Notes under the pieces: generated by a model
Databases searched by the model: none
Told to the model about the DNA's origin: nothing
The model's input: the letters and a program-made list of their open reading frames with translations, nothing else
Source: Acidobacteriota bacterium
GTDB taxonomy: Bacteria > Acidobacteriota > Aminicenantia > JBFLYD01
DNA length: 64,000 nt
Direction: 5' to 3'
Assembly (NCBI GenBank): GCA_040756905.1
Contig: JBFLYD010000057.1
Coordinates: forward strand, 162-64,161
Translations under genes and position numbers: made by a program
Part shown: positions 16,324 through 31,993 of the stretch, piece by piece
Layout: every line of letters begins with the position of its first letter
Position numbering within the stretch: the stretch's first letter is position 1

Positions 16324-16451
16324 TTAATACGAACGCACTAATATTTGTTACACCTTACTCGTTTTCCCCCCTCACCTCAATCCTCTCCCCACAGGGGAGA
16401 GGGAGGGGTGAGGGGACAGGAATGCATCGGAATTAAATGCGTTTGTATTAG
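16324..16451. repeat. Repeat family A copy 1: ~128-nt element with TAATAC(G/A)AACGCA terminal inverted repeats and a long GC-rich internal palindrome
   Basis: Near-identical to the reverse complement of 52682-52807. Internal palindrome ccccctcacctcaatcctc ... ggggagagggaggggtgagggg. Confidence 0.65.
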
Positions 16452-16647
16452 TATTATAGTATTAATTTCCTTAACGCCGTAATATCGGTGTCAGGCTTAA
16501 CTTTTTGACACCGTACACGTACAATTAATAGAAACATTTAAAAAGGTTGCAAATAAAAAAGTAGCCTGTCCCCTTTTTCCCTTTTTTGTCTAAATTTGAC
16601 CTTTGTATTAAAAATTATTTATAATCTTTTGAAAAAGAGGAGGAGGA

Positions 16648-17382: not shown

Positions 17383-17393
17383 AACAATTAGTG

Positions 17394-17576
17394 TGCTGTC
17401 CCATAGATATCCTCGCACACAAACAATCTCTGATGAAGCACACTGAATGGGTATTGGGAAGAGGCTTCCCCATGTCTGGGGTGTTTTCAGCGAAGCGTCT
17501 AAAGGGAGCTTGCCCCCAGAGGGAAAGTGCCGTGTCACATCAAAATAACAAAAGGTATTTAGGTGAGACGACACTA
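17394..17576. repeat. Repeat family C copy 1: ~180-nt hairpin-rich element
   Basis: Shares ATAAAGCACACTGAA..GGGGAAGnnnCTTCCCC..CATGTCTGGGG ... AGGGAAAG..GTCACA..GACACTA with 43885-44063 and 48960-49326. Confidence 0.55.
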
Positions 17577-18170: not shown

Positions 18171-18204
18171 ATTTTTATGATTAAATATAAAAAATGAGTT
18201 TTAA

Positions 18205-19029
18205 ATGGAAATAAAAAAGAAAAACCAAAAAGGATTAACTTTGATTGAAATGATTATTGTTATAGCAATAATCGCTCTTTTAGCAGGTCTCTTTACTCCC
18301 TTAATCTTCAGGAATATTGACCAGAAGAGATTTGACACAACAAGGGAGAAAATGAAAATGATTAAGCAGGCTATCGTTGGAGACCCAACTCACATATTGT
18401 ACAGACAGAGGACATCATTTGGGTACATTGGAGATATGGGAATTTTGCCCAATGCCCTCACTGATTTAATCGTCCAGGGAACCCAGCCAAACTACCAGCA
18501 AGATGGAACATCAGGATTATGGTGGGGATGGAAAGGGCCTTACCTTGAGACAACTCAGACCACAATAAGCGGAAACACTAAATATGTGGCATTGATAGAC
18601 GCATGGGGAAATGACATTCAGTATACAAAAAATTTATCAGGAAATCCTGTTGTTACCCTTCAATCCTATGGTCCTGATGGAGCCTCAGGAGGAGGCGATG
18701 ATGTATTTGTTTATATCTTTTTCCAGGAAGCATTCTCCTACTTACAAGGAAACTCTCAGGATGAATGTGGAATGGGAATTCTATTTGGAGCAATAAGATT
18801 ATATTATCCAAATGGAACAACAGTGACATATGCAACTGCAACAAACTCCACCGGTAATTTTACGTATTCATTAACTACATTTCCTGCAGGTGTTAGAAAA
18901 TTGATTGCCGATGCAAATAACAATGGAAGCTTTGCTGATTCAGTAGATTTGAATCAATTCTGCGTCATAAACAATGGACCTGTCAATGGAATTAACTTGA
19001 GAAGAAAAGGAACCTGCGCCTGGCCATAA
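18205..19029 (+). CDS. GspG/PulG-like pseudopilin, paralog 2
   Basis: Leader MEIKKKNQKG then LTLIEMIIVIAIIALLAG. DAWGNDIQY and SYGPDGASGGGDD GspG-type motifs. Confidence 0.7.
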   Translation: MEIKKKNQKGLTLIEMIIVIAIIALLAGLFTPLIFRNIDQKRFDTTREKMKMIKQAIVGDPTHILYRQRTSFGYIGDMGILPNALTDLIVQGTQPNYQQDGTSGLWWGWKGPYLETTQTTISGNTKYVALIDAWGNDIQYTKNLSGNPVVTLQSYGPDGASGGGDDVFVYIFFQEAFSYLQGNSQDECGMGILFGAIRLYYPNGTTVTYATATNSTGNFTYSLTTFPAGVRKLIADANNNGSFADSVDLNQFCVINNGPVNGINLRRKGTCAWP

Positions 19030-19123
19030 AACAATACAAACTCAAGTGCTATACGCTTTTTTTGAGAAAATTTGTTGGTAAAAATATTCAGGAGACTCTA
19101 ATATTAAATCATCATAAAAAATA

Positions 19124-20518
19124 ATGTCTTATAAAAAATCCAAACTAAAAGGAATTGTTCTTCTTCAGGTATTGGCAGTAATAATCATTCTATTGATTGG
19201 TATAGCAATTTTTCTTCCTTTAATCGTAAAATCAATCGAGAAAAGGGAAACTCTTAAAACAGAGGAGAAATTAGAGATAATAAAAGAGGCAATCGTAGGA
19301 AAAGAGGAATTGATGGGTTCTAATCTTAGAACCTCTTATGGTTTTGTTGGAGATTTAGGAATTCTTCCAGCAACTCTAAATGAGTTAATGGTTCAGGGTT
19401 CATATCCATCCTGGACAATTGATGCAACAACAAAAGTTGAATTCGGCTGGAGAGGACCTTATTTGAATACAATTCAGCATAATGGTAACTATGTTGCTTT
19501 TCTGGATACATGGGGAAATCTAATTCAATATGAAAATGGAACTGGAGCTGTTTTAAAAGTTTTAAGAAGCTATGGCCCTGACGGACAATCAGGTACCACA
19601 GATGATATCACTCTTAACATAGAAGAAGATGAAGTCAGAGGTTATGTAAAAGGAACTATTAAAAACGGTGCGGGAGTTCCAAGAATGATTGACCAGATAG
19701 ACATATACTACCCAAATGGAACATCTACCTTGCAAAAATTAACAGTTTACCCTGATTTTGGAGATTACAGCACTGAAACTGATACTTGCTCTCCACCATG
19801 CCCTGTAAAAATCCCTATTGGCAAAAGAAAAATTATAACTGATATAGACAACCAACCCCCTCAAAATTTAGATTATTATTTAGGCCCTGGGCAGAGAGTT
19901 GGGCAGTATGCGAAACTTCCTCCAATTCCTCAAATTCCTCCTGGAGCATGGGCATGTGATTTTTATTTGCCTGTGAATGGTGGTCCTTACATGAACTGGA
20001 ACCTGAGATGTGGAGTACCTGGCGTCCCCGGATATTTAATTTACATAGAAAAATCAAGAAAACATCAGAAATTCCACTGTCCTGAAAAAGGAGATGGAAA
20101 AAATATGTGGGATAAAGTTATAATAACCATCCAGAATGTGTTCAATTTCACGGTCAAATTAAAAGCATTTTCCTTCTATTCAAACAGTCCTAATCCTTTA
20201 TATCTTGAATATGCATTCTTTGGAAAAAAGAAAGGGTTTCCGACTGATTTTGTCGGATGGGACTATATGGTTGTTAACGGTGGGGTTAGAGCTGCAGAAA
20301 AACAGAGAATAAATATATATGCAATAGATGCTCCTAACTATACTCCCTACACAGTTGAGATAGAACCTTGCGAAGATATTGAATTCAGTTTTCTTGGTTT
20401 TAACTACAGCCAAACAGGTCCGGAATACTGTATCGATGTAAGATGTATTGTTTTTACAATTGCTTTTTCAGATGGCTCTACCATTGAAATTCCTGTTGAC
20501 CCAGGGGATTGCAAATAA
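19124..20518 (+). CDS. Pseudopilin-like protein with a degenerate prepilin signal and a large Cys-rich C-terminal domain, paralog 3
   Basis: Leader MSYKKSKLKG followed by IVLLQV (Q instead of E at +5). Central region paralogous to gene 2 (DTWGNLIQY, SYGPDGQSGTTDD). C-terminal ~250 aa has about 10 Cys (CSPPCPVKIP, WACDF, HCPEKGDG, DPGDCK). Confidence 0.55.
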   Translation: MSYKKSKLKGIVLLQVLAVIIILLIGIAIFLPLIVKSIEKRETLKTEEKLEIIKEAIVGKEELMGSNLRTSYGFVGDLGILPATLNELMVQGSYPSWTIDATTKVEFGWRGPYLNTIQHNGNYVAFLDTWGNLIQYENGTGAVLKVLRSYGPDGQSGTTDDITLNIEEDEVRGYVKGTIKNGAGVPRMIDQIDIYYPNGTSTLQKLTVYPDFGDYSTETDTCSPPCPVKIPIGKRKIITDIDNQPPQNLDYYLGPGQRVGQYAKLPPIPQIPPGAWACDFYLPVNGGPYMNWNLRCGVPGVPGYLIYIEKSRKHQKFHCPEKGDGKNMWDKVIITIQNVFNFTVKLKAFSFYSNSPNPLYLEYAFFGKKKGFPTDFVGWDYMVVNGGVRAAEKQRINIYAIDAPNYTPYTVEIEPCEDIEFSFLGFNYSQTGPEYCIDVRCIVFTIAFSDGSTIEIPVDPGDCK

Positions 20519-20649
20519 AGTAGGTTTCTTGGCCACTCCTCCTATCTCAGAAATACATTAAATTCCCCCCTCCTAATCAAAACTTTAGATGATTACTGCA
20601 AATCAAGTTAATTGAAAAAAGAAAAGGATTAGATTAAAATTTTTCATCT

Positions 20650-21255
20650 ATGAAAAAAGATGCTGAAAAAAATCAAAGACCTTCGAAGGATAGATATTAT
20701 TTAAATATTGCAAAAGAAGTTTCTCGAAGGTCAACATGCCTTAAAGTTTTAATCGGAGCAATAATTGTAAGGGATGACCAGATCATTGCAACCGGATATG
20801 TGGGAGCACCAAGAAAGACAAAAAGCTCTTTAGAACACGGATTCTGCCTCAGGCAGATGCTTGGTATTCCTTCAGGTGCTCAGTATGAACTATGCAGGTC
20901 TGTCCATGCAGAACAGAATGCCATAATAAATGCTGCAAGAGCAGGCGTTTCCCTTCTTAATGGAGATATGTTTATCTATGGAGAAAAAAGAGATTCCTCT
21001 ATTTCTCAATCCTTGGAAAATGAAAAAGAGGTTACAGGGAATGTAAAATTGCTGAATGCCTATCCCTGTTTTATCTGTAAAAAAATGATAATAAATTCAG
21101 GATTGAAAAGAGTCGTCTGCTCGACAGAAGATGGAAAATTCAGAATATTTTCAGTCGATAAATGGGTTAAAGAATGGCAGATAACAGATATAATAGAGGA
21201 TAAATATCAGTATGGAGAATTGCTGCATCAATTGAATAAACTTAAACAAAAATGA
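20650..21255 (+). CDS. dCMP/cytidine deaminase zinc-binding family protein
   Basis: HAEQNAI and PCFICKK zinc ligand motifs, with ~52 residues between them (longer than typical bacterial ComEB-type spacing). Confidence 0.7.
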   Translation: MKKDAEKNQRPSKDRYYLNIAKEVSRRSTCLKVLIGAIIVRDDQIIATGYVGAPRKTKSSLEHGFCLRQMLGIPSGAQYELCRSVHAEQNAIINAARAGVSLLNGDMFIYGEKRDSSISQSLENEKEVTGNVKLLNAYPCFICKKMIINSGLKRVVCSTEDGKFRIFSVDKWVKEWQITDIIEDKYQYGELLHQLNKLKQK

Positions 21256-21818
21256 AAATCGGAGTAACCGGTCCGATTGCCTCTGGAAAAGGAGAGGTTG
21301 TTAAGTTCTTCAGGAAAAATAATTTCAAATACATTTCTCTTTCAGACATGGTCAGAGAGGAAGCAAAAAAAAGAAACATTCCAGTTACAAGAGAAAACCT
21401 TCAGAACATAGGAAATAGCCTGAGAAAAGAATTTGGAGCAGGTGTTTTAGGAATGAAAGTAAGAGAGATAATTGAAAGCTTCCCTGAAAAAAACTGGATT
21501 ATCGATGGAATAAGAAACCCTGCTGAAATAGAAGAATTGAAAAAAATGAAGGGTTTCTATCTTATCGGAATTATCGCACCCCTTAACATTTTGATAGAAA
21601 GAATATTGAAAAGAGAAAGAGAAGATGACCCGAAAAAGAAAGAGGAAATTATAGAAAGAATCAGACAGGACATAGGTGTTAATGAGCCCGAAGATGGCCA
21701 GCAGGTTGGCAAATGCATTAAGATGGCAAACTTTACAATCATTAACGAAGGCTCGTTATTAGATTTACAAGAAAAATTAAAGAGAATCTATTCCACAATT
21801 TTAAAAAAATCTATTTAA
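21252..21818 (+). CDS. P-loop NMP/nucleoside-kinase-like protein with an atypical Walker A (GPIASGKGE)
   Basis: MKIGVTGPIASGKGEV P-loop, adenylate-kinase-superfamily-like size. Its ATG overlaps the deaminase TGA (ATGA), suggesting translational coupling. Exact substrate unknown. Confidence 0.4.
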   Translation: MKIGVTGPIASGKGEVVKFFRKNNFKYISLSDMVREEAKKRNIPVTRENLQNIGNSLRKEFGAGVLGMKVREIIESFPEKNWIIDGIRNPAEIEELKKMKGFYLIGIIAPLNILIERILKREREDDPKKKEEIIERIRQDIGVNEPEDGQQVGKCIKMANFTIINEGSLLDLQEKLKRIYSTILKKSI

Positions 21819-21892
21819 TAAATACTTTATCCTTATATAATATTTTTAAAATTCAAGATAAAGGAATATGGTATTGGATGCAAAGATTGTAG

Positions 21893-22435
21893 TCATTTTC
21901 TCGTGCCATATTGAATATTAAACCAATATATGAACAAATCTTTCTCTAAATTTCTGTAGTTATTAAACCTTTTGGAGACTATTTTCCAAAAATTTTCGTT
22001 ATGTCTTTTTTCTATTAAATGGGTAATTTCGTGAAAGATTACATACTTTATCAAATACTTGGGCAACTTTTGCATCAGTATATTTATAGTCAGATTTCTC
22101 TTGGGACTCAAGCTTGCCCATTTTGTTTTCATATTTCTGAAATAGATATTATTCAATCCAATACTTAATTCTTTGGAGATTTTTTTAACAAATTTCTCAA
22201 TGAGAGTCCTGAATTCCTTTTCACTTCTCTCAATCAATCTTTTATTTGAAGAAAGATTTAAACATTCCCTTATAAATTCATTCTTTTTAAAAATCCAATT
22301 CTTGTGCTTTTCAAGAATAATATCAGGTTTTAATCTCACAGGCAGTACTAAAAGAAGCTCACCTGTTGTAAATTCTAACCTTGGATATTTTATATTCCTG
22401 TAAGAAGTTTTATATCTTATGTTATGCATTTCCAT
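21893..22435 (-). CDS. DUF45 / WLM / SprT-like zinc metallopeptidase (often annotated M48-family) associated with type I R-M loci
   Basis: HEITHLIEKRH HExxH motif near the C-terminus. Start overlaps the hsdR stop. Confidence 0.65.
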   Translation of the reverse strand: MEMHNIRYKTSYRNIKYPRLEFTTGELLLVLPVRLKPDIILEKHKNWIFKKNEFIRECLNLSSNKRLIERSEKEFRTLIEKFVKKISKELSIGLNNIYFRNMKTKWASLSPKRNLTINILMQKLPKYLIKYVIFHEITHLIEKRHNENFWKIVSKRFNNYRNLEKDLFIYWFNIQYGTRK

Positions 22436-25427
22436 AATTTTTCACACTTTCAATGAGTTTCCCATATAGAGTATTCATTTCATCTAAAGAGAGAGCATGC
22501 TTGCTTTTAAGCCTCCTAACAAATCTTCTTATCTCACGCTCTACTTCCTTTCTTGCAGTAGCTTGATTAAACCAGCCTAAAAACATACGCTCTTGAAGAT
22601 TTTGTGAGAGTTCCATCACTTCTTTTGTAAGCTGTTCTCCATTTTCCAGTTTCTGCTCAAGTTGAAGGAGCATTGCATATTCAAGATTGGAAAATCCTAA
22701 AGACTTTTGTCTCTCTGTAAGAGTATTGATATCCTTAAGTATTCTTACACCTTCAGTATAAATCTTTGCGTAATCTCTAGTCTTTTCTTTCCAGAGCTCA
22801 AGAAGCCTTTCGACTTTTTCAATCAATGACTCATAGATGGGATTTCTGTGTCTTTCTACAAGAACTAACTTGTTAAGGGTAAAGAGGATATTCGCTGCTT
22901 TCTCCTCTTTTCCTTTAATTTTCTCTTCTAGCTTCTCGAGATACTCTTTATCAAAAGCTATAGTTGGAAGTTCTCGCTCAAGTGTATCTATTTCAGTAGC
23001 CCTATGAACAAATCTTATAGTTTTATCGTAGTATTTTTGAATATAGCCTTCATAAACAGATTTTTGGATGACTACTTTCATGTAATATGCGTAAATTGCA
23101 GAGAGCCATTTATAGGAATCAAAATGTTCCAATTTGATCTCATTGGGCCCAAGAAGTTCGAAAGTTTTACTTAATTTTCTGTACTTTTCAAGAAATTCTT
23201 TCCCTTTCTCTTCATCTAAAGTAAGAACTTCTATAGTTTTCAATAAGGTTTCCCTTTTGTAATCAATCGATACTTCTTTAAGAATTTCCAAAATCTCTCT
23301 AATAAGAGTTACAAATTCCTCTATAACATTGTCCTGACTAAAGAGAGCACCTTTGATATCTTCTTCGCTGTACATTTCAAGGGCTCTCTTAAATTCTTTT
23401 AAAATACCCACATAATCAATTACAATTCCAGACTCTTTTAAATCATTAAAAGGTCTGTTTGTTCTTGCTATTGCTTGAAGAAGCCTGTGTTCCTTGAGGA
23501 GCTTATCAAGATACATTACCTGGAGAGAAGGGCAGTCAAAACCAGCAAGCAGCATTTCAGTAACAATCAATATGCTGGGTAAGGGTTCTTCTTTGAATTT
23601 TTCGATAATTTCTTTTCTGATATCCCCTATATCTTTGCCTCCGTATTGTGCCCTGAGTTCAGCGACTGCGTTCTTTAATAACAGTTCATCTTCTCTATCA
23701 AACGTTATGACTACTTTGCTATACTCTTCAGGCAAATGTTTATTCAATTCCAGTCTGTAAAGTTCACATGCCTTTCTGCTTCCAGCTACCACCATAGCCT
23801 TAAACTTTCCATCAATATTCTCTTTGAAATGTTGAGCTATATCTTCGGCAATTACTTTAATCCTATTGGGATTTTCAAGAAAGAGTTTTATGGCATTAAG
23901 TCTTTTCTTTATCCCTTCCTCAACATCTTCGCGGATCTCCTCTGGAAGTTCCTCAAGTTCTGTTTCCAAAAATGCTTCCAGCATCTCCTTTTTTAAATGG
24001 ACCTCTTTTTCAAGTCTTGGCTGATAGACGATTTTCACTGTAAAACCGTCTTTGATAGAATCCGTTATGAAATATCTGTCAAGATAAGGTTCTTCTGTCG
24101 GATAGCTGAATTCTAAATAGGTGTCTCTTCCTCTCTTTGAAATGGGAGTGCCTGTGAGGGCAAAAAAGAAGGCGTTCTTGAGTATTGATTTCATCTGAGC
24201 TGCAAGAGTTCCATATTGAGTCCTATGCCCTTCATCTATAAAGGCAATGACATTCTTCCTGTTCATTATTGTTTCTTTGTGTTTTGATATTTCCTCTAAT
24301 TCTTTCTCTACCTCTTTGAGTTCTTCATATCTGAATTTATGAATAAGCACTATAAAAACTCCTCTCTTGCCTCTGTAGTCCTCATGTTTGAGGATTTCTT
24401 TGAGTTCCCACACTGAACTAATAATTTCAGGTTTTACAATATCTAGAGAGTTGAATTCACTATAAAGCTGATCTTCCAGCTCAATCCTGTCAACAATGAA
24501 AAATATTGTGGGATTTTCAAGCTCTTTCATGTAGTAAAGCTTATGAGCTGCAAATATCATGGTAAGGGTTTTTCCGCTTCCCTGCCAGTGCCAGATAAGT
24601 CCTCTATTCTTTTCCTCTTGACCCGTGAGATTCGCCATGACTCTATTAACGATTTTATTGGCAGCGCTGTATTGCATATATCTGGTTATCGCCTTAGAGG
24701 CATTTCCAAATTCTATCCTGAAAAAGAGGAAATGTTTGAGTATATCGAGTAAAGATTTTCTTGATAGAATTTCGATGACAGAGTCAATGGAATCTTTTCC
24801 TTCCTCTTTCCATTCGTGCGTTTTCACTTCATCCTGCCACGGAACAATAGGAAAATACTTAGCCCTACTTTCTGCAGCTACTCCAATTTGGACATACTTA
24901 TAAAGCTCTGGAACGATTTTTTCGTAATCTTTTACCTGTTTATAAGCGTTGTACCAGCTTTCGGATATACTTGCAGGGTTCTTACATTCTATATTTACAA
25001 GAGGGATGCCGTTAACATAGAGCATAAGATCTATCCGAATTCTTTCTCTGCCGTCATAATTGATCTGCGTTGTTACAATGAACTCATTATTCTCGATGTC
25101 CTTGAAATCGAATAATTGAATGTACTTTACCACTCTCTCTTTTTCAAACTTCACAGGAATGCCAAATTTATAGAAATTCAAAATTTTCTTTGCTCCTTCA
25201 ATGCCTGAGCTTGTTAAAGTTAGTTCATTCAGAGCTTTATTTATCTCTTCATCGCCGATGTTAGCTTCTTTGTTTATTCTTTTTAATGCTCTTACGAGAT
25301 TCGGCACAAGGAGAGGCTCTTTATAGTTTTCTCTCATAAGATTATCAGATGGAACAAATTCCCACTCCTTTTCTATAAGTCTGCGGAGGAGATACTCTTC
25401 TACAATAGATTTTTCAGTAAATTTCAT
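22422..25427 (-). CDS. hsdR: Type I restriction enzyme R subunit (SF2 helicase plus endonuclease)
   Basis: 1001 aa. WQGSGKTLTM Walker A, DEGHR-type DEAH box (IDEGHRTQ), N-terminal nuclease region. Operon with hsdS and hsdM. Confidence 0.9.
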   Translation of the reverse strand: MKFTEKSIVEEYLLRRLIEKEWEFVPSDNLMRENYKEPLLVPNLVRALKRINKEANIGDEEINKALNELTLTSSGIEGAKKILNFYKFGIPVKFEKERVVKYIQLFDFKDIENNEFIVTTQINYDGRERIRIDLMLYVNGIPLVNIECKNPASISESWYNAYKQVKDYEKIVPELYKYVQIGVAAESRAKYFPIVPWQDEVKTHEWKEEGKDSIDSVIEILSRKSLLDILKHFLFFRIEFGNASKAITRYMQYSAANKIVNRVMANLTGQEEKNRGLIWHWQGSGKTLTMIFAAHKLYYMKELENPTIFFIVDRIELEDQLYSEFNSLDIVKPEIISSVWELKEILKHEDYRGKRGVFIVLIHKFRYEELKEVEKELEEISKHKETIMNRKNVIAFIDEGHRTQYGTLAAQMKSILKNAFFFALTGTPISKRGRDTYLEFSYPTEEPYLDRYFITDSIKDGFTVKIVYQPRLEKEVHLKKEMLEAFLETELEELPEEIREDVEEGIKKRLNAIKLFLENPNRIKVIAEDIAQHFKENIDGKFKAMVVAGSRKACELYRLELNKHLPEEYSKVVITFDREDELLLKNAVAELRAQYGGKDIGDIRKEIIEKFKEEPLPSILIVTEMLLAGFDCPSLQVMYLDKLLKEHRLLQAIARTNRPFNDLKESGIVIDYVGILKEFKRALEMYSEEDIKGALFSQDNVIEEFVTLIREILEILKEVSIDYKRETLLKTIEVLTLDEEKGKEFLEKYRKLSKTFELLGPNEIKLEHFDSYKWLSAIYAYYMKVVIQKSVYEGYIQKYYDKTIRFVHRATEIDTLERELPTIAFDKEYLEKLEEKIKGKEEKAANILFTLNKLVLVERHRNPIYESLIEKVERLLELWKEKTRDYAKIYTEGVRILKDINTLTERQKSLGFSNLEYAMLLQLEQKLENGEQLTKEVMELSQNLQERMFLGWFNQATARKEVEREIRRFVRRLKSKHALSLDEMNTLYGKLIESVKNYGNA

Positions 25428-25428
25428 C

Positions 25429-26559
25429 TCAGGTTTCCAATTTCACTCTCTTTCTCCCTGTCAGTAAATCATTCATCAATCCCTTCTTAATTCTCTCAAA
25501 CTTTCCCTTTTTCTCTTTCAGCATCTCCAGCCTTCTATCCCCTGTGCTCAGGATTTCAGCGATTTTTTTCTGTTCAGGGAGAGGAGGAAGAGGGAGTTTC
25601 AGCACATGTACCAATTCTCTTTTAAGTCCAGGGACTACATCAGCCAAACTTAGTTTTGGCAAATTTAAATGATTTAATACAAAAAATAACCACTTCAATT
25701 CAATATCTTTTATTAAGGTATTTATATAATAAGTTGTATCTATAGGCCAAAAATCTGAGTTTATCCAAGAGACAGCTCCTATTGTCCCCTTTCTGCCTAT
25801 AACTATACCTGGCCCCTTAACTAAAGCTTCTTCATGGTATCCCACTATTCCATTAGAACCTACCACTGGATACATTCCAGCTTTTCTTTCTCTTTCAGAT
25901 AATCCTTTGCCATACTCTAACGTTAGTATTTTCCCCAACCTCACCACCTCCCACTCCTTCGGTATCCTTCCAATCTCTGTTTCTTTAAACTCTTTATAAC
26001 CTATGCCCTTGGTCAGTAGCTCATGCATCAACCCCTTTTTTAGCCTTTCGGTCTTCTCAATAGTTTCATCTACCTTCTCAATAGCCTCATCAACCGTTGA
26101 AAGAATCTTAGCAATTTTTTTCTGTTCAGGGAGAGGAGGAAGAGGGAGTTTCAGCACATGTACCAATTCTCTTTTAAGTCCAGGGACTACATCAGCCAAA
26201 CTTAGTTTTGGCAAATTTAAATGATTTAATACAAAAAATAACCACTTCAATTCAATATCTTTTATTAAGGTATTTATATAATAAGTTGTATCTATAGGCC
26301 AAAAATCTGAGTTTATCCAAGAGACAGCTCCTATTGTCCCCTTTCTGCCTATAACTATACCTGGCCCCTTAACTAAAGCTTCTTCATGGTATCCCACTAT
26401 TCCATTAGAACCTACCACTGGATACATTCCAGCTTTTCTTTCTCTTTCAGATAATCCTTTGCCATACTCTAACGTTAATATTTTCCCCAACCTCACCACC
26501 TCCCACTCCTTCGGTATCTCGCCAATTTCGGTTTGTTTAAATTTCTTTTGTTTAGTCAT
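25429..26559 (-). CDS. hsdS: Type I R-M specificity subunit with two nearly identical target recognition domains
   Basis: Two ~150-aa TRDs of identical sequence (EIG(E/R)IPKEWEVVRLGKILTLEYGKGLSERE...PLPEQKKIA) separated by the conserved central coiled-coil region. Typical HsdS size. Confidence 0.85.
   Translation of the reverse strand: MTKQKKFKQTEIGEIPKEWEVVRLGKILTLEYGKGLSERERKAGMYPVVGSNGIVGYHEEALVKGPGIVIGRKGTIGAVSWINSDFWPIDTTYYINTLIKDIELKWLFFVLNHLNLPKLSLADVVPGLKRELVHVLKLPLPPLPEQKKIAKILSTVDEAIEKVDETIEKTERLKKGLMHELLTKGIGYKEFKETEIGRIPKEWEVVRLGKILTLEYGKGLSERERKAGMYPVVGSNGIVGYHEEALVKGPGIVIGRKGTIGAVSWINSDFWPIDTTYYINTLIKDIELKWLFFVLNHLNLPKLSLADVVPGLKRELVHVLKLPLPPLPEQKKIAEILSTGDRRLEMLKEKKGKFERIKKGLMNDLLTGRKRVKLET
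25563..25985. repeat. Direct repeat copy 1 inside hsdS (TRD-encoding, ~423 bp, near-identical to 26114-26536)
   Basis: Read directly: the sequence from tttttttctgttcagggagaggagg to ccactccttcggtatc recurs with a ~552-nt period and only a few substitutions. Confidence 0.85.
26114..26536. repeat. Direct repeat copy 2 inside hsdS
   Basis: See copy 1. Confidence 0.85.
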
Positions 26560-27551
26560 TTCTTAAATTCCAATATGTCAAAAATACTCAATTGTCCTGC
26601 ATTTGAAATTTCAATTTTTCTGGTTGTAATATTCTCAAATTCCCATCCAGTATTTGGGATAAGCGCTTTAGAAATAGTAAATGCTCTATAATGACTACTA
26701 TTCTTAAATCCACTGCCCCGCTTTCGTTTATCAAGCATCTCTTTTACAGGATATGCAATAATTCCTTTTTTATCTTCTATTGGGTTACCGATCTGAGGAT
26801 TTATATTCTTGATTTTTGCATCTTTAAGGCAGCAATGAATCGCACAACCAAGTAACATATCCGCCAACTGAAGCATATTGGCGTGCTTGTATTCTTCCGA
26901 TCCTTCATTATAATTCCTATGATTAGAATTCAAATGTACTAACTCTGCATCCTTGGGAATTTGCACATATTCCCGAACTTCTCCTGTAAGTCTATCCAGT
27001 ATTCTAAACTCGTTTAATCTTCGATGATGTGGCTGACCATCAGTAATAATTTTTAAGATTTTCACTTTGTGACTATTGTCATAAAGGTAATGAACCGTTC
27101 CCTTTAATAACATTCTAAGCAATGTTTCTCCAAACCTTAATTCTCTTTCATTCCTATCTTTACCACCATAACTTGCAATTTGATCTGGCCTTGGCTTTTC
27201 ATGAAAAATTATACCTAACTTGCAAAAAGTTTTATTCTGCTTTAAATACTTTACACCTATTTGAACTATCTGTTTATCGGCATTATTTCGCTTTGCCCAT
27301 TTCCGTCCAGATATCTCTGAAAAATGGAATTTATGATCTACGCCAAAATCACTTCTTATCTTCTTAATTTCCTCAAATAGAATATTTAAGGGTTCAACTT
27401 GTCTTATCTGTGTGTCAAATAAATCACCTGTCTCTTCAATAATTGTTTTAATCGGTACAAAAAGCAAAGCATGTCCCTTTGATATTTCTGTACCAGCGCT
27501 TTTTGTTTCATCATGATATACTATTACTTCACTTTCAATACTTCTTCTCAT
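26556..27551 (-). CDS. Hypothetical 331-aa protein embedded between hsdM and hsdS, tentatively DUF3800-like
   Basis: N-terminal VIVYHDETKS (acidic motif on a predicted first strand) and C-terminal ANMLQLADMLLG resemble what I recall of DUF3800. Not verifiable here. Overlaps the hsdS start by 4 nt. Confidence 0.3.
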   Translation of the reverse strand: MRRSIESEVIVYHDETKSAGTEISKGHALLFVPIKTIIEETGDLFDTQIRQVEPLNILFEEIKKIRSDFGVDHKFHFSEISGRKWAKRNNADKQIVQIGVKYLKQNKTFCKLGIIFHEKPRPDQIASYGGKDRNERELRFGETLLRMLLKGTVHYLYDNSHKVKILKIITDGQPHHRRLNEFRILDRLTGEVREYVQIPKDAELVHLNSNHRNYNEGSEEYKHANMLQLADMLLGCAIHCCLKDAKIKNINPQIGNPIEDKKGIIAYPVKEMLDKRKRGSGFKNSSHYRAFTISKALIPNTGWEFENITTRKIEISNAGQLSIFDILEFKK

Positions 27552-27576
27552 TTTTCTATTTTGCCTCTCACCACAT

Positions 27577-27870
27577 TTATTTCTTCCCCCCTGCTCTCTT
27601 TATAATATTTCCTTTTTCATCCATGACCCCTATCCCGTTTCCCTTGGTACCATCTAAAGCATTCTGTAGATTCCTTTCGTTTACAGCAATATACCTTGCT
27701 TTTGAGGATCTTTTTACCTGATTTATTCCTTGATATATTCCACTTTTCGTGGTCTCAACTTCAATCACTCTATTGTCTGTAACTATATCAATCCCCTTTT
27801 GCTTTCTATATTCTGTTCCAAACCTTTTTGCCAACTTTTCCCCAATTTGATCGTGTTTATTTTTAGCCAT
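27577..27870 (-). CDS. Small 97-aa hypothetical protein, possible minimal PD-(D/E)xK (Hjc/VRR-NUC-like) fold
   Basis: GIDIVTDNRVIEVETTK resembles a D...E-x-K nuclease core. Weak, by eye only. Confidence 0.2.
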   Translation of the reverse strand: MAKNKHDQIGEKLAKRFGTEYRKQKGIDIVTDNRVIEVETTKSGIYQGINQVKRSSKARYIAVNERNLQNALDGTKGNGIGVMDEKGNIIKRAGGKK

Positions 27871-27967
27871 TATTTAACCTCCTCAAATTAATAATCATCA
27901 ACTTAATCATCAACCTTATCTAAGTTAATAGCCGAGGCTTCTACATTTCCAAGCGGTTTCGTCTCTC

Positions 27968-28504
27968 TCACTCCCTTCCGAACCCGATCATCTTTCTCGG
28001 CTTTTGAGGTGGAGTCATGAGTTGGCGAATGGCATCGAAAATAGCCTTTATCTTTTCCTCTTGCCTTTCTATTTTTCTTTCAAGCTCCGTTAACTTGTGA
28101 GCAAGTTCTTTGTGTGCTGAAAGGATTTCTCTAAGCCTTATAAAGGCCCGCATGATGGCTATATTCACATGAATGGCTCTTTCGCTATGCAATACACTGG
28201 AAAGCATGGCAACACCTTGTTCAGTAAAGGCATAAGGGCGGGCACGTCTTGCTCCTCCCCAACTTGAAATCACAATTTGTGACTTCAAGATTTTATACTC
28301 TTGTTCATTAAGCTGGAACATAAAATCTTCAGGGAATCTCTCGATATTGCGTTTTACTGCCTGGATAAGCACACGAACTTCAACCTCATAGAGTTCCGCA
28401 AGGTGTGTGCTAAGCATAATTTTCTTCCCTCGGATAAAACAAATTTTTCTCTCAATCTGTTCTATTGGAACAATTGCTTGATTAAGCATTTCCAGTTCCA
28501 TCAT
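27968..28504 (-). CDS. ORF6N-domain (KilA-N-like) DNA-binding protein, a common type I R-M passenger
   Basis: N-terminal [45 protein letters not shown] is typical of ORF6N proteins. C-terminal coiled coil. Confidence 0.55.
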
Positions 28505-28686
28505 CCTTGACTTTTTACATAATCTTTAATTTTTTTTATATTTTCTGCCGTCGTAGTTGCCTGCCAATTAACCTTTTTGCATCAAAATATAATAAATTTA
28601 TGCCTCTTAGAAAATGACAACTTAAATGACAACCATTGTCAAACCAGCTCATAATAAGCTCCTCTGTACTTTTCTTTGAACTTTCA

Positions 28687-30231
28687 TCATCTATCTCTTT
28701 CCCCTTTCTTTATTGCAATATATTTTTGAAATCTACTTTTTGGTTTATCCGGAATCGTTCTTTTTAAATAGTCCTTTTCCAATAGAGGATTGAGGATTTT
28801 CTCTATAAAGTGTTTTCTGTCTCTTAAGTTTAGGTGCACCATGATTTCTTTCAGGGATCTCGGAGTTTGGCAATAACTTAGAGTCAGAGCAATTCTATCC
28901 ATTATTTCGACTTGTGGGGTGACTTGTGGGGTGACTTGTGGGGTGACTTGTTCGGTTGGATGACGCAGTGTGAAGGTAAAAGTATCAGATTTTATATCAT
29001 TTGAATAATCTGGAATTGGATATCCTTCTTTTTTCAGGAGCTCAACGGTAGTTCTAATGCCTGTTCCTTTTGTTTCTGCCCATCCGATATCATAAAAAAC
29101 AGCGGCTATTAGAGGGTTGCGCAATTCAGATCCAGGAGAACTAAAGAGAGAAGGATCTTTTAGAGAGTAGCCAGGGTTATAAAATTCCACTCTATCATTA
29201 TAGACTCTTATCTGAGCAGGGCTTGGGTGAAAATAGTTTTGATGCATTAAAAGATTAGTGAGGGCTTCTCTTAAAGCCTTTCTATGGGCATGCTCTTCTG
29301 TGCGAATGAGCTTCTCATCCAATTTAAATGGAATCAAGAAGAAACGATCAAGGATGTCGAGAGCAGAAGACCAGAGAGTTACGAGATTTCCTGTCAAATC
29401 CTGTGAGAGAAAGGGATTCTTTTCTTTTCCCCATTCTGACCCTTTTATCCTGATTATATCCAGGCGCTTTGCTGGAAAATATCGTTTTACAATTCCTTCC
29501 TTACCAAAAAGAAGGATGCCAGCTACGATTAAAGTCCTGCCATCTTGTGCCAGCAGATTGTACGCTTTCAATAATTCGGCATTGTCAAATGTGAGTTCCG
29601 GAGCATCAGGTTTTATGAGCTTACGCAGATTTCTGAAGACAGAAATAGCCTTGATATCAATATCTTCTAATGTAGTACCAATAACAGATTGTGCATCAGG
29701 AGCTCCCATTCGCTCTTGATAATATCTCTGGACATCAGAATCTGTTAATCTTATGTCGGTAGCTCCTATTCGTTTAAAACCTCCTTTAATTGGGCCTAAG
29801 TCTTTTATGTAGATTGGCTTTTGATATCTCGGTGCTTCTTTTACTTCAATCAAAATTATCGGCATACCTTTATCCTCTGTTATCCCCGCTCTTACAACAG
29901 GACAATAATTAAATTTCTGCCCAATGGTGGAGGTAAAGTCATCCAATATCTTTGAAGGATTCTCTACGCCCACAGGGATGTAGTTATTGTCTGCCTTCTC
30001 ATACCCAAGAAGTATCATTCCACCGCCTTCATTTGAAAAAGCTGAAACGGTCTCCCATAAATCCTTAGAAAGTTTCGATTTGCAAAGTTTATACTCAATC
30101 TTTGAACTTTCCCATCTGCTCCTCTCTTCCATTATCTTCATTTTTTGTGGTTCTCCGTTCTCTATCAATTTGACTCTTTTTTCAGCTCCAGACTCAATAG
30201 AATCTTGATTCTCAGATTTTTTCTTCATCAT
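28687..30231 (-). CDS. COG2865-type protein: Schlafen-like AlbA_2 domain plus HATPase_c_4-like domain plus C-terminal wHTH
   Basis: LWETVSAFSNEGGGMILLGYE (AlbA_2 / divergent AAA region). Central ALREALTNLLMHQNY. C-terminal HTH-like tail. A (VTPQ)x3 tandem repeat lies in the linker. Confidence 0.65.
   Translation of the reverse strand: MMKKKSENQDSIESGAEKRVKLIENGEPQKMKIMEERSRWESSKIEYKLCKSKLSKDLWETVSAFSNEGGGMILLGYEKADNNYIPVGVENPSKILDDFTSTIGQKFNYCPVVRAGITEDKGMPIILIEVKEAPRYQKPIYIKDLGPIKGGFKRIGATDIRLTDSDVQRYYQERMGAPDAQSVIGTTLEDIDIKAISVFRNLRKLIKPDAPELTFDNAELLKAYNLLAQDGRTLIVAGILLFGKEGIVKRYFPAKRLDIIRIKGSEWGKEKNPFLSQDLTGNLVTLWSSALDILDRFFLIPFKLDEKLIRTEEHAHRKALREALTNLLMHQNYFHPSPAQIRVYNDRVEFYNPGYSLKDPSLFSSPGSELRNPLIAAVFYDIGWAETKGTGIRTTVELLKKEGYPIPDYSNDIKSDTFTFTLRHPTEQVTPQVTPQVTPQVEIMDRIALTLSYCQTPRSLKEIMVHLNLRDRKHFIEKILNPLLEKDYLKRTIPDKPKSRFQKYIAIKKGERDR
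28909..28950. repeat. 12-nt tandem repeat (GACTTGTGGGGT x3.5) encoding the VTPQVTPQVTPQV linker
   Basis: Read directly from the sequence. Confidence 0.85.
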
Positions 30232-31993
30232 TAGATACCTTTAGTTCCTTAAGATAATTCTCTATCTTTTCGCTTACTTCTGTTAGCTCCTTTTCAAGTA
30301 TGCGAAGCTCTTCCCACTCTTTTGCCGCATCAATCTCCTCTGTCTCTTCCTCAGGAAAAACATACAGCGTAACATTCAGGTTATAGTCATTTTCTTTTAT
30401 CTTTTCATGCTCTACAATCCTTGCAAATCCATCTATATCCTTAAACTCTCTGTATGCAATAACAATTTTATTTATGTGCTCATCTCCTAATCTGTTGAGT
30501 TTTCTGACCTCTGGATGTTGTTCATATTCTCTGCTTGCATTTATAAATAAAATCTTGTCTTTCCTTTCCTCTGGTTTATTCTTATTGAGAATGAGGATGG
30601 CTCCTGGTGCACCTGTATTGTAGAAAAGTTTTTCAGGGAGGAGAATGACTGCTTCCATCAGGTTTTCGCTAATAATAGCTGTTCTCACCGCTTTTTCTTT
30701 TCCACCCCTAAAGAGACAACCATTATCTATGACAATACCTACTCTACCTTTTTCGGTGTTTGCAGAGGATAGCATGTGTTGAATCCAAGCCCAGTCTGCG
30801 GATTGATTTGGAGAGAATCCGTACTTAAATCTTTCTCTCCAGAACTCACCCTTTTTCAAAATATCCTCACCATAGCCATCTTGATTCCATGGGGGATTGG
30901 CTATGACGACATCGAACGTTTTGGCACGTTCAGCATCTTTAAATTTGGGATAAAGCAGAGTATCGCCAAGCACAAGTTGGGCATTCCTTATATCATGGAT
31001 GTAAAGATTCATCTTCGCTAAGGCGAGAGTCTTGTGATTGGCTTCCTGTCCGGACAAGAAAAGTTTTTCAGCCTCACTTTTTCCCTTTTCATTTTCAATA
31101 TGTTGATAGGAGGCTATTAACATGCCTCCTGAACCACAAGCAGGATCATAAACACTTTCTTTTGGCTGGGGATCAAGAATTTCTACGAGGAGTTTTATAA
31201 CCTCTCTTGGCGTGTAAACTTCTCCTTCTTTTGCCTTTTGGGGAGCGAAATATTTTAAAATCCATTCGTAGGCATCACCAAGTATGTCAGGAGAGACATG
31301 ATGAAGTGGCTTTGCGCTGAAGAGCTCGACAAGTTGCCTTAATATCTCTACATTCTCTCTGTTTGTGGTGAACTGGACAAAATCAACATTCTCAAAGACA
31401 TCTTTTAACTCAGGATTTTTCTCTGAGAGAAGCTTCATTGCCTTGGAAAAGTTTTCTGGTAATCGCGCAGGTTCTTTTCTTATGTTTTCCCAAAGAAGTT
31501 CATCCGAAATATCGAAATCATGATATATGGAGTTTTTTGCCTCTACTTTTGCCTCTTCCTCACTAAGACCATCTGCAAGGGCTTCCTTATAGGCCGCCTC
31601 GTATTCTATTTCCCATTTGTCGCTTATCCTTTTATAGAAAAGAAGGAAAAGTATAAATGTATAATCGACCCTTGTTCTGATAAGATCCGCAGCTTTTTTT
31701 AGTAGATTATCAAGATCGTCTCTTGTTAGAGTATCATTCCTTATCGTAAATAATTCCGATAATATTTTTTCTCGGCTTATCAATGTGTAGATACGCTTTC
31801 TTGCATCTTTAGGGTCAAGTTCAACTTTGAGCCAATCTCTTTTTCGTAACTCTGAAAGAATAACATTGACCTGCTCCTCTGAGTCCTGCAACTTCTCCTT
31901 GAGAATCTTTTCTGCTTCTTCAAAACGGAATAAAGAATCCTTGAAGGCTTCCACGAGCATCCCATATCTTTTTTCGAGCCATTTAGGTATCAT
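30212..31993 (-). CDS. hsdM: Type I R-M N6-adenine DNA methyltransferase subunit
   Basis: DPACGSGGML SAM motif, VVIANPPWN catalytic motif, N-terminal HsdM_N-like region. Confidence 0.9.
   Translation of the reverse strand: MIPKWLEKRYGMLVEAFKDSLFRFEEAEKILKEKLQDSEEQVNVILSELRKRDWLKVELDPKDARKRIYTLISREKILSELFTIRNDTLTRDDLDNLLKKAADLIRTRVDYTFILFLLFYKRISDKWEIEYEAAYKEALADGLSEEEAKVEAKNSIYHDFDISDELLWENIRKEPARLPENFSKAMKLLSEKNPELKDVFENVDFVQFTTNRENVEILRQLVELFSAKPLHHVSPDILGDAYEWILKYFAPQKAKEGEVYTPREVIKLLVEILDPQPKESVYDPACGSGGMLIASYQHIENEKGKSEAEKLFLSGQEANHKTLALAKMNLYIHDIRNAQLVLGDTLLYPKFKDAERAKTFDVVIANPPWNQDGYGEDILKKGEFWRERFKYGFSPNQSADWAWIQHMLSSANTEKGRVGIVIDNGCLFRGGKEKAVRTAIISENLMEAVILLPEKLFYNTGAPGAILILNKNKPEERKDKILFINASREYEQHPEVRKLNRLGDEHINKIVIAYREFKDIDGFARIVEHEKIKENDYNLNVTLYVFPEEETEEIDAAKEWEELRILEKELTEVSEKIENYLKELKVSNDEEKI

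What the first reader, a model, noticed from the sequence alone, without database searches (positions are those of the whole stretch)
20650..21818. Translationally coupled dCMP-deaminase-like plus atypical P-loop kinase pair at the edge of the R-M island
The deaminase has the HAE and PCxxC zinc motifs but ~20 extra residues between them. Its TGA overlaps the ATG (ATGA) of a 188-aa P-loop kinase-like protein with an unusual Walker A (GPIASGKGE). Kinase-domain plus dC-deaminase-domain proteins are known anti-phage effectors that deplete dCTP. Here the two domains are separate genes in the opposite order, next to the DUF45, hsdR, hsdS and hsdM cluster. Housekeeping dCMP deaminase plus a dNMP kinase, or a comEB-like gene near pilin genes, is an alternative.
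Basis: partly seen in the sequence, partly recalled or inferred. Interest (0 to 1): 0.55.

Follow-up and report, generated by a model that had tools for sequence, protein, structure and literature searches.

The report
Housekeeping dCMP deaminase and nucleotide-kinase pair
The two overlapping genes are real, but they look like an ordinary, widely conserved pair for making DNA building blocks (dCMP to dUMP to dTTP); they are distant relatives of a known anti-phage enzyme rather than a defence system.

Summary
A 201-aa zinc dCMP deaminase (20650-21255) overlaps by ATGA a 188-aa P-loop kinase (21252-21818), convergent with a type I R-M island.

The defence reading is not supported.
- In 86 related loci, 50 have a dCMP deaminase linked to the kinase, in either gene order or fused.
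- These loci come from Aminicenantes, Peregrinibacteria/Patescibacteria and DPANN archaea.
- Their neighbours are dNTP-synthesis genes (thyA/thyX, DHFR, tmk, dut, MazG, nrdR-nrdD-nrdG) or core genes (rpoBC, coaD). No defence family recurs.
- The kinase is also found fused to the unrelated dUTPase-fold dCTP deaminase and to dUTPase.

The kinase has an SSO1041/UPF0200-like NMP-kinase fold and keeps its catalytic Lys and Arg residues. It is homologous to the N-domain of anti-phage dCTP deaminases (hhalign 98.5%). Three such defence proteins lack those residues.

A known housekeeping dCMP deaminase scores as well on the defence model as the window's deaminase does. The R-M island has no counterpart in relatives.

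Best reading: a housekeeping deoxypyrimidine pair. The kinase probably interconverts deoxycytidine nucleotides; that substrate is inferred, not shown. The family is uncharacterised, so there is modest residual interest.

The parts
20612..20640 (+). Promoter-like site (TTGAAA-17-TAAAAT, 10 of 12) 10 nt upstream of the deaminase ATG. Weak evidence only.
   Evidence: The scan found fewer sites than the shuffles did (4 against 7.4), so this is a consensus match, not evidence of function.
20650..21255 (+). Zinc-dependent dCMP deaminase of the 'long-type' clade, 201 aa. Catalytic H86-A-E88 (nt 20905-20913) and P139-C-x-x-C143 (nt 21064-21078). Structural-zinc cysteines C30, C66 and C82.
   Evidence: PF00383 scores 65.1 bits. 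The closest folds are dCMP deaminases 2HVW, 1VQ2 and 7FH4. It is 68-86% identical to relatives from several phyla.
20977..21054 (+). Extra loop between the HAE and PCxxC motifs (residues 110-135, about 26 aa more than S. mutans dCMP deaminase). Residues 119-133 (nt 21004-21048) are specific to this lineage.
   Evidence: alignment A2. Low pLDDT: the 118-129 segment is below 50.
21252..21255 (+). ATGA stop/start overlap of the two genes. Translational coupling is inferred from the overlap, not tested.
   Evidence: The same 4-nt overlap occurs in the closest relatives that have context, L086 and L087.
21252..21818 (+). NMP-kinase-fold P-loop kinase, 188 aa, of the SSO1041/UPF0200-related family. 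P-loop G7-PIASGKG-E15 (nt 21270-21296). Invariant K13, R35, R47, R58, D85-G86-x-R88, LID R117/R121/R123, and G149-Q150.
   Evidence: AlphaFold pLDDT is 93.8. TM-score to 3LW7 is 0.80/0.88.
21893..31993 (-). Adjacent, convergent type I R-M island: YgjP/DUF45, HsdR, HsdS, an unknown 330-aa protein, ORF6N, SLFN-AlbA_2/Fic-like_C, HsdM. This is context only and is judged not to be part of the pair.
   Evidence: No homologous island occurs in the other related loci. Only L083 has an R-M gene nearby.

Best explanation
This is a housekeeping deoxypyrimidine-nucleotide gene pair.

The deaminase converts dCMP to dUMP, the precursor of dTMP. This function is inferred from family membership.

The co-transcribed, probably translationally coupled kinase is a catalytically competent NMP-kinase-fold enzyme of an uncharacterised family related to SSO1041/UPF0200. 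It works in the same pathway. Most likely it interconverts deoxycytidine nucleotides (dCMP + ATP <-> dCDP + ADP). That would either feed dCMP to the deaminase from RNR-made dCDP/dCTP, or partition dCMP between the dCTP and dTTP branches. The substrate is inferred, not shown.

The R-M island next door is an unrelated, lineage-specific neighbour.

The anti-phage dCTP deaminases (AvcD/DcdV type) are distant relatives of the fused form of this module. The three examined here have lost the kinase catalytic residues.
For: Linkage.
- 50 of 86 kinase loci carry a dCMP deaminase on the same strand: 23 fused kinase~deaminase, 16 deaminase->kinase as in the window, 9 kinase->deaminase, and 2 with thyX in between.
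- Among the best 150 family representatives there are 17 K~D fusions and 1 D~K fusion.
- There are also 2 fusions to the non-homologous dUTPase-fold dCTP deaminase (PF22769) and 1 fusion to dUTPase.

Context.
- L071: deaminase-kinase-thyA-DHFR-MazG-tmk.
- L073 and L069: deaminase-thyX-kinase-(MazG)-tmk-(dut).
- L076: tmk, dut, thyA, deaminase, kinase, DHFR.
- L035/36/25/31/37: (tmk)-nrdR-nrdD-nrdG-fused protein.
- L043: nrdR-class II RNR-thioredoxin-kinase.
- Closest relative with context (79%/57% identity): rpoB-rpoC-deaminase-kinase with the same 4-nt overlap, followed by homologues of the window's pilin-like genes.
- In 121 flanking proteins from 37 loci, no PADLOC family occurs more than twice. 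The hits look like housekeeping cross-hits (IscS-like SspA/DndA, UvrD-like GajB, NrdG-like pVip). The commonest Pfam neighbour is CoaD.

The kinase looks active.
- P-loop Lys, NMP-site Arg and LID Arg residues are invariant in 27 sequences.
- The family profile matches adenylate and UMP/CMP kinases across the NMP-binding and LID segments.
- The fold model is confident.

The deaminase has all dCMP-deaminase motifs and is 68-86% identical across phyla. This suggests strong purifying selection rather than arms-race evolution (inference).

Controls: the known housekeeping S. mutans enzyme and SSO1041 score on the defence model about as well as the window's genes do.
Against: - No biochemistry exists for this kinase family. 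Literature searches for UPF0200, SSO1041 and PRK08356 found nothing on function.
- The substrate assignment rests on guilt by association. The best curated kinase models all score below cutoff: (d)CMP kinase TIGR02173 22.5 against 102, ADK 21 against 26.8, CoaE 17.6 against 27.
- The window itself and one Peregrinibacteria-like locus (L083: serine recombinase, R-M, transposase) do place the pair beside mobile or defence genes.
- 36 of 86 kinase loci show no deaminase within 1.5 kb, partly because some loci are truncated.
- Whole genomes could not be screened for a second cmk, dcd or dCMP deaminase.
Confidence: 0.75

Rival explanations
1. A split, reverse-order version of the AvcD/DcdV-type anti-phage dCTP deaminase. 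It would be part of the R-M defence island and would deplete dCTP on infection.
For: - Both proteins hit the defence models: PADLOC dCTPase 4e-23 and 3.7e-25; NF041025 55 and 57 bits.
- The kinase family is truly homologous to the defence N-domain.
- It shares a G-Q motif with that domain which SSO1041 lacks.
- The deaminase shares with the defence clade an insert before HAE that ComEB lacks.
- The pair is adjacent to type I R-M in the window. In L083 it lies close to a serine recombinase, with an R-M gene about 6 kb upstream.
Against: - Scores are 7-fold below the NF041025 cutoff.
- Housekeeping controls score about the same.
- The deaminase lies in a separate clade, 29-31% identical to defence enzymes.
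- The three defence N-domains lack the P-loop Lys position, R35, R88 (K instead) and the LID Arg cluster, all of which the window kinase keeps.
- Neighbours in relatives are dNTP-synthesis or core genes, and no defence family recurs.
- The R-M island is convergent and has no counterpart in the related loci.
- There is no GC anomaly.
Confidence: 0.04
2. The kinase is a dephospho-CoA kinase (a CoaE analogue). Its pairing with the deaminase would be mere operon packing.
For: - In 10 Aminicenantes-type loci, coaD (TIGR01510, 194 bits) follows the kinase. In most of them the two genes overlap by about 8 nt.
- JGI names many members 'dephospho-CoA kinase'.
- There is N-terminal similarity to CoaE structures (4TTP 1.4e-6).
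- Some members pass the Pfam CoaE cutoff over the first 45-90 residues.
Against: - The CoaE similarity is confined to the P-loop region. The family profile aligns with adenylate and UMP/CMP kinases across the NMP-binding and LID segments.
- The window protein scores 17.6 bits on CoaE, below the cutoff of 27.
- All domain fusions found are to deoxypyrimidine enzymes (dCMP deaminase, Dcd, Dut) and none to CoA enzymes.
- The thyA, thyX, tmk, dut and nrd operons point the same way.
- The coaD linkage is confined to one lineage.
Confidence: 0.07
3. The kinase-like protein is mainly a nucleotide-sensing regulatory subunit of the deaminase, an allosteric dCTP/dTTP sensor, rather than a metabolic kinase.
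For: - Repeated fusion to three different dUMP/dUTP-forming enzymes fits a shared regulatory module.
- In the defence relatives the domain lacks the canonical NMP-kinase catalytic residues, yet mutations in it abolish function.
Against: - Complete conservation of the P-loop Lys, NMP-site Arg and LID Arg residues in the non-defence family argues for catalysis.
- Many members occur without an adjacent deaminase.
Confidence: 0.12

Closest known systems
Anti-phage dCTP deaminase (AvcD/DcdV; NCBIfam NF041025; PADLOC dCTPase; Tal et al. bioRxiv 10.1101/2021.04.26.441389; Hsueh et al. bioRxiv 10.1101/2021.03.31.437871)
   Same: - The same two domain families, a P-loop-kinase-like domain and a zinc dC-nucleotide deaminase. 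hhalign of the kinase family against the defence N-domain gives 98.5%.
- A shared G-Q motif.
- A shared insert before the HAE motif.
- Fused kinase~deaminase relatives of the window pair have the same domain order.
   Different: - Two separate genes in the opposite order, 201 + 188 aa instead of about 500-576 aa.
- 55 and 57 bits against a cutoff of 400.
- The canonical kinase catalytic residues are kept here but are missing in three defence proteins.
- Relatives sit in housekeeping operons, not defence islands.
- No upstream antitoxin RNA is evident (this is not a decisive test).
Housekeeping dCMP deaminases (S. mutans 2HVV/2HVW, B. subtilis ComEB, T4 Cd 1VQ2, PBCV-1 bi-DCD 7FH4, human DCTD 2W4L)
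   Same: - The fold.
- The HxE, NA and PCxxC motifs and the structural-zinc cysteines.
- The inferred reaction, dCMP to dUMP.
   Different: - Only 27-34% identity, and below the ComEB equivalog cutoff (63 against 219 bits).
- It belongs to a distinct, very conserved 'long-type' clade. That clade has the CLRxxLGIPSG insert, an extra loop between HAE and PCxxC, and a conserved C-terminal WVKEWQxxDIIxDKxxYG extension.
SSO1041 / UPF0200 'adenylate kinase-related protein' (PDB 3H0K, 3LW7) and NCBIfam PRK08356
   Same: - The best sequence match (4.8e-17 single sequence, 1.9e-26 profile) and the best structural match (TM-score 0.80/0.88).
- A short-LID NMP-kinase fold.
- Function unknown in both.
   Different: - About 25-29% identity.
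- The window family has a 7-residue insert carrying the invariant G149-Q150.
- PRK08356 scores 66.8 bits against a cutoff of 189.
Adenylate and UMP/CMP kinases (AK1, 1UKE/2UKD, 1TEV)
   Same: - The P-loop G-x-x-x-x-G-K-G.
- The S-x-x-D-x-x-R NMP-site motif.
- D-G-x-R after strand 3.
- A short Arg-rich LID.
   Different: Low scores (Pfam ADK 21 against 26.8). Base-specificity residues cannot be assigned.

Membership tests
Anti-phage dCTP deaminase (AvcD/DcdV, NF041025) | A single polypeptide of more than 350 aa with an N-terminal kinase-like domain and a C-terminal deaminase domain (criterion of Tal et al., read) | tested here: not met
   Two ORFs of 201 and 188 aa, deaminase first.
Anti-phage dCTP deaminase (AvcD/DcdV, NF041025) | Score at or above the curated NCBIfam cutoff (400 bits) | tested here: not met
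   55.0 bits (deaminase) and 57.4 bits (kinase). Even natural fusions of this family reach only 119-165 bits.
Anti-phage dCTP deaminase (AvcD/DcdV, NF041025) | Homologues lie preferentially next to defence systems (defence score above 0.33) | tested here: not met
   In 121 flanking proteins of 37 loci, no PADLOC family occurs more than twice. Neighbours are thyA, thyX, tmk, dut, nrd, coaD and rpoBC. Limitation: only +/-2 genes were scanned and there is no formal background.
Anti-phage dCTP deaminase (AvcD/DcdV, NF041025) | The deaminase domain groups with the defence clade | tested here: not met
   In an NJ tree on 154 columns the window sits in the 'long-type' clade. The three defence enzymes form a separate clade at 29-31% identity.
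Anti-phage dCTP deaminase (AvcD/DcdV, NF041025) | The kinase-like domain is homologous to the defence N-domain | tested here: met
   hhalign 98.5%, E 1.6e-15, 180 columns. However, K13, R35, R88 and the LID Arg residues are present here and absent in three defence proteins.
Anti-phage dCTP deaminase (AvcD/DcdV, NF041025) | A cognate upstream antitoxin RNA (AvcI), and infection-triggered dCTP depletion | not testable with these tools
   There is no Rfam hit in 16000-34000 apart from a chance-level snoRNA match. AvcI homologues share no sequence similarity, so absence cannot be shown in silico.
Zinc-dependent dCMP deaminase (PF00383; dCMP deaminase/ComE clade) | Pfam gathering score; HxE, NA and PCxxC motifs; structural-zinc cysteines; dCMP-deaminase fold | tested here: met
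   65.1 bits against 25. H86, E88, N90-A91, C140, C143, C30, C66 and C82 are invariant. These features are as listed by Iyer et al. 2011. The top Foldseek hits are all dCMP deaminases.
ComEB (TIGR02571 equivalog) | Score at or above 219.45 bits, and a comEA-comEB-comEC operon | tested here: not met
   63.4 bits. The upstream genes are TPR and pilin-like proteins; none is comEA or comEC.
SSO1041/UPF0200-like NMP-kinase-fold proteins | Sequence and fold similarity, with P-loop and LID present | tested here: met
   3LW7/3H0K at 4.8e-17 (single sequence) and 1.9e-26 (profile). TM-score 0.80/0.88. The PRK08356 equivalog cutoff is not met (66.8 against 189), so this is a related family, not the same one.
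Dephospho-CoA kinase (PF01121 / TIGR00152) | Score at or above the curated cutoff over the full domain | tested here: not met
   Pfam CoaE 17.6 against 27, residues 2-57 only. The profile match to CoaE structures is limited to about 60 N-terminal residues.
Cytidylate / (d)CMP kinase (TIGR02173, PF02224) | Score at or above the curated cutoff | tested here: not met
   TIGR02173 scores 22.5 against 102.1. The '(d)CMP kinase-like function' is therefore an inference from context, not family membership.

The most novel reading that the evidence does not exclude
The SSO1041-related kinase is an uncharacterised but catalytically active partner. It would associate physically with whichever enzyme makes dUMP or dUTP (zinc dCMP deaminase, dUTPase-fold dCTP deaminase or dUTPase) and supply or partition deoxycytidine nucleotides. 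That would be an unrecognised housekeeping 'dC-nucleotide to dUMP' module of Aminicenantes, CPR bacteria and DPANN archaea. AvcD/DcdV-type defence enzymes would have evolved from it by fusion, N-terminal extension and loss of kinase catalysis.
Probability: 0.3. Interest if true: 0.55.

Novelty: new variant of a known kind. Interest (0 to 1): 0.33.

Why it matters
For this window the result is mostly deflationary. The pair is not a new defence system, and its position beside the R-M island has no counterpart in the related loci examined.

Three things remain useful.
1. A large kinase family has no known function: 3,722 clusters at E<=1e-10. It is now tied by gene order, operons and three kinds of domain fusion to dUMP/dTTP synthesis. 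That gives a concrete, testable hypothesis for a missing or alternative (d)CMP-kinase-like step in CPR, DPANN and Aminicenantes genomes.
2. It identifies a likely housekeeping relative of the AvcD/DcdV-type defence enzyme. It also suggests that the defence 'kinase' domain is a degenerate nucleotide-binding domain.
3. It warns that the PADLOC dCTPase model scores fused kinase-deaminase proteins at 166-220 bits. One of the three tested (L025) lies in an nrd/tmk operon, and another (L001) lies among non-recurrent neighbours. Defence censuses of CPR and DPANN genomes may therefore over-call this system.

Tried and rejected
- An exact-sequence look-up of the window kinase found no contig on record.
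- tblastn of the kinase against 50,697 phage records gave no match. There is therefore no sign of a phage origin.
- Literature searches for UPF0200, SSO1041, 3LW7 and PRK08356 gave nothing on function. No solved AvcD structure turned up by sequence or fold search.
- The Rfam scan of 16-34 kb gave only a sub-threshold snoRNA hit. No intrinsic terminator is predicted after the kinase, and only a weak promoter-like site lies upstream.
- Homologues of coaD, tmk, nrdR, nrdG, thyA, DHFR and PEPCK from related loci were searched for in the window. None was found, so the window does not carry the dNTP operon itself.
- The ComEB reading is rejected. It scores below the equivalog cutoff, and none of the adjacent genes scanned against Pfam is comEA or comEC.
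- The CoaE reading was considered because coaD lies downstream in 10 loci. It is judged unlikely.
- P0023 looked at first like a deaminase->kinase fusion. The alignment shows it is an N-terminally truncated kinase~deaminase fusion.
Full report
**1. What is in the sequence**

The two ORFs are as described: 20650..21255 (+, 201 aa) and 21252..21818 (+, 188 aa). The second ATG overlaps the first TGA as ATGA at 21252-21255.

Exact matches identify the window as an NCBI MAG contig labelled 'Acidobacteriota bacterium'. There the proteins are annotated 'dCMP deaminase family protein' and 'AAA family ATPase'.

The genes around the pair are as follows.
- Upstream on the same strand lie a TPR protein and three to four pilin-like genes.
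- Downstream, after 74 bp, a type I R-M island begins on the opposite strand: YgjP/DUF45, HsdR, HsdS, an unknown 330-aa protein, ORF6N, a SLFN-AlbA_2/Fic-like_C protein and HsdM.
- Beyond the island lie a Na+/H+ antiporter and RNase HII.

GC content is flat across the region. There are no tRNA genes, no credible Rfam hit and no predicted terminator after the kinase.

**2. The deaminase**

It is a bona fide member of the zinc dCMP-deaminase superfamily.
- PF00383 scores 65.1 bits against a cutoff of 25.
- H86-A-E88, N90-A91 and P139-C140-x-x-C143 are invariant, as are the structural-zinc cysteines C30, C66 and C82. These are the features listed for dCMP deaminases by Iyer et al. 2011.
- The best solved relatives by sequence and fold are dCMP deaminases from S. 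mutans, T4, PBCV-1, cyanophage S-TIM5 and human.

It is not ComEB: TIGR02571 scores 63.4 bits against a cutoff of 219.

It belongs to a distinct 'long-type' clade that is strikingly conserved. Identity is 68-86% to proteins from Aminicenantes, Peregrinibacteria, Nitrospirota and others, but only 27-34% to ComEB and the S. mutans enzyme, and 29-31% to defence dCTP deaminases.

- About 11 of the extra residues are typical of the whole clade.
- Fifteen (residues 119-133) occur only in this protein; a shorter version occurs in its 93% relative.
- AlphaFold models this segment with low confidence (the 118-129 segment is below pLDDT 50), so it is a variable surface loop.

**3. The kinase**

- Pfam gives only the generic AAA_17 and AAA_18 families, with weak ADK and CoaE hits.
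- The best solved relative is the uncharacterised Sulfolobus 'adenylate kinase-related protein' SSO1041/UPF0200 (4.8e-17 single sequence, 1.9e-26 with a family profile).
- The AlphaFold model is confident (pLDDT 93.8). It superposes on 3LW7 with TM-scores of 0.80/0.88. CoaE, UMP/CMP kinase and adenylate kinases follow at TM-scores of about 0.6-0.65.
- In an alignment of 27 family members the following are invariant: the P-loop Lys (K13), R35 in an S-x-S-D-x-V-R motif, D85-G86-x-R88, the LID arginines R117/R121/R123, and a family-specific G149-Q150.
- The family profile aligns with adenylate and UMP/CMP kinases through the NMP-binding and LID segments. It aligns with CoaE only over the first 60 or so residues.

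The 'unusual' GPIASGKGE is the family consensus. It is also the G-K-G form normal for adenylate-type kinases (own knowledge). The protein therefore looks like an active short-LID NMP kinase.

**4. How the two genes are linked elsewhere**

A scan of one genome per species found 80 loci encoding the kinase. They come from Peregrinibacteria/Patescibacteria, Aminicenantes/Acidobacteriota and DPANN archaea (Woese-, Pace-, Aenigm- and Nanoarchaeota), plus scattered others.

Loci fetched by exact protein look-up bring the total to 86 kinase loci. Of these, 50 have a dCMP deaminase on the same strand:

| Arrangement | Loci |
|---|---|
| Kinase~deaminase fused | 23 |
| Deaminase->kinase, separate (as in the window) | 16 |
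| Kinase->deaminase, separate | 9 |
| thyX between the two | 2 |

An exhaustive profile search found 565 clusters at E<=1e-30 and 3,722 at E<=1e-10. The best 150 representatives break down as follows:

| Architecture | Representatives |
|---|---|
| Stand-alone kinase | 123 |
| Kinase~dCMP deaminase fusion | 17 |
| Deaminase~kinase fusion (P0294, the window's order) | 1 |
| dUTPase-fold dCTP deaminase (PF22769)~kinase fusion (P0303, P0343) | 2 |
| dUTPase~kinase fusion (P0273) | 1 |
| Tandem kinases | 2 |
| Other long proteins: weak methyltransferase N-domain (P0287); no recognised second domain (P0323, P0326, P0359) | 4 |

Fusion to two non-homologous enzymes that both turn deoxycytidine nucleotides into deoxyuridine nucleotides is the strongest single clue to the pathway.

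**5. Neighbourhoods**

Clustering of flanking ORFs, followed by Pfam and NCBIfam scans, gave these contexts.
- L071: deaminase-kinase-thyA-DHFR-MazG-tmk.
- L073 and L069: deaminase-thyX-kinase-(MazG)-tmk-(dut).
- L076: tmk, dut, thyA, deaminase, kinase, DHFR.
- L061: DHFR-thyA-SHMT near the kinase.
- L035, L036, L025, L031, L037: (tmk)-nrdR-nrdD-nrdG-fused kinase~deaminase.
- L043: nrdR-class II RNR-thioredoxin-kinase.
- Ten Aminicenantes-type loci: deaminase-kinase-coaD, tightly packed.

The closest relative with context is L086 (79% deaminase and 57% kinase identity). It reads rpoB-rpoC-deaminase-kinase with the same 4-nt overlap. A lyase follows, then homologues of the window's 274-aa and 464-aa pilin-like proteins. 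Part of the neighbourhood is therefore conserved, while the R-M island is not.

Other contexts:
- A 72%-identical deaminase also occurs alone, in a tgt-yajC-secDF context.
- A kinase occurs alone after PEPCK.
- Only L083 looks mobile, with a serine recombinase, an R-M gene and a transposase.

Across 121 proteins flanking the pair in 37 loci, no PADLOC family occurs more than twice. The hits are typical housekeeping cross-matches. The commonest Pfam neighbour is the CoaD family.

**6. Relation to the anti-phage enzymes**

The relation is real but distant.
- Both window proteins hit PADLOC 'dCTPase' (80 and 87 bits) and NCBIfam NF041025 (55 and 57 bits; cutoff 400).
- In the controls, a fragment of the housekeeping S. 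mutans dCMP deaminase scores 82.7 bits and archaeal SSO1041 scores 72.5 bits on the same PADLOC model.
- Three annotated plasmid-borne examples were retrieved from Vibrio, Pantoea and E. coli; two are annotated 'anti-phage dCTP deaminase' and the E. coli one 'deoxycytidylate deaminase'.
- hhalign of the kinase family against their alignment gives 98.5% probability and E 1.6e-15 over 180 columns.
- The G-Q motif is shared with the defence N-domains and absent from SSO1041.
- In these three defence proteins the P-loop Lys position, R35, R88 (Lys instead) and the LID Arg cluster are not conserved.

This fits published work. Mutations in that motif abolish defence, but kinase activity has never been shown.

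The defence deaminase domains form their own clade.

On current evidence the window pair is therefore a housekeeping relative of the module, not a member of the defence family.

**7. Mechanism proposed**

Shown:
- The gene structure.
- Family memberships.
- Conservation of catalytic residues.
- Linkage by gene order and fusion.
- The operon contexts.

Inferred:
- The deaminase makes dUMP from dCMP for thymidylate synthesis.
- The kinase catalyses phosphoryl transfer on a deoxycytidine nucleotide. The most economical proposal is dCMP<->dCDP. This would deliver dCMP from RNR-made dCDP/dCTP to the deaminase, or deliver salvaged dCMP upward to Dcd in the Dcd-fused forms.
- The ATGA overlap suggests stoichiometric co-expression, and perhaps a complex.

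Rival readings:

| Reading | Confidence |
|---|---|
| Dephospho-CoA kinase (coaD linkage, N-terminal similarity) | about 0.07 |
| Purely regulatory nucleotide sensor | about 0.12 |
| Split defence effector | about 0.04 |

**8. Verdict**

The defence interpretation is not supported.

As an instance the pair is ordinary. As a family, the kinase is uncharacterised and now has a well-supported pathway assignment and an evolutionary link to AvcD/DcdV. That justifies a modest interest score.

Noticed in passing
P0303, P0343, P0273 (representatives): The same kinase family is fused to the dUTPase-fold dCTP deaminase (PF22769; 399 and 401 aa) and to a dUTPase (316 aa). These enzymes are unrelated to the zinc dCMP deaminase but act in the same dC->dU step.
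   Followed up: partly
L001:6001-7017, L005:6001-7095, L025:5992-7029: Fused kinase~deaminase proteins score 166-220 bits on the PADLOC dCTPase model and 119-165 bits on NF041025. L025 is from a DPANN archaeon; L001 and L005 are from Peregrinibacteria. L025 sits in an nrd/tmk operon, while the neighbours of L001 and L005 are not dNTP genes. Defence-system censuses may over-call them.
   Followed up: partly
window 18205-19029 and 19124-20518 (+): A pair of pilin-like proteins (274 aa with an N_methyl motif; 464 aa with no Pfam hit). Homologues (280 aa and 475 aa) lie next to the deaminase-kinase pair in the relative L086, on the other side. This is a partly conserved, rearranged neighbourhood.
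   Followed up: partly
window 26556-30231 (-): Three extra genes separate hsdS from hsdM in the type I R-M island: an unknown 330-aa protein with no Pfam hit, an ORF6N/KilA-N-like protein (27968-28504), and a SLFN-AlbA_2 + HATPase_c_4 + Fic-like_C protein (28687-30231).
   Followed up: no
window 10372-12759 (-): A 794-aa ORF with no Pfam match at E<=0.001.
   Followed up: no
L043:1244-5344: A class II ribonucleotide reductase interrupted by a LAGLIDADG intein, in a Nanoarchaeota MAG. It is flanked by nrdR, thioredoxin and the kinase.
   Followed up: no
L007, L008, L019, L022, L026, L038, L041, L048 (about 6550-7050 in most): In Aminicenantes-type relatives, coaD follows the kinase directly, overlapping it by about 8 nt in most of these loci (L007 and L026 show a short gap). 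This gives a deaminase-kinase-coaD operon. The window lacks it and has the R-M island at that position instead.
   Followed up: partly
L070:5325-6582; P0245, P0258: Tandem duplications of the kinase: two adjacent genes in a Chloroflexota MAG, and two-domain proteins of 379-395 aa.
   Followed up: no
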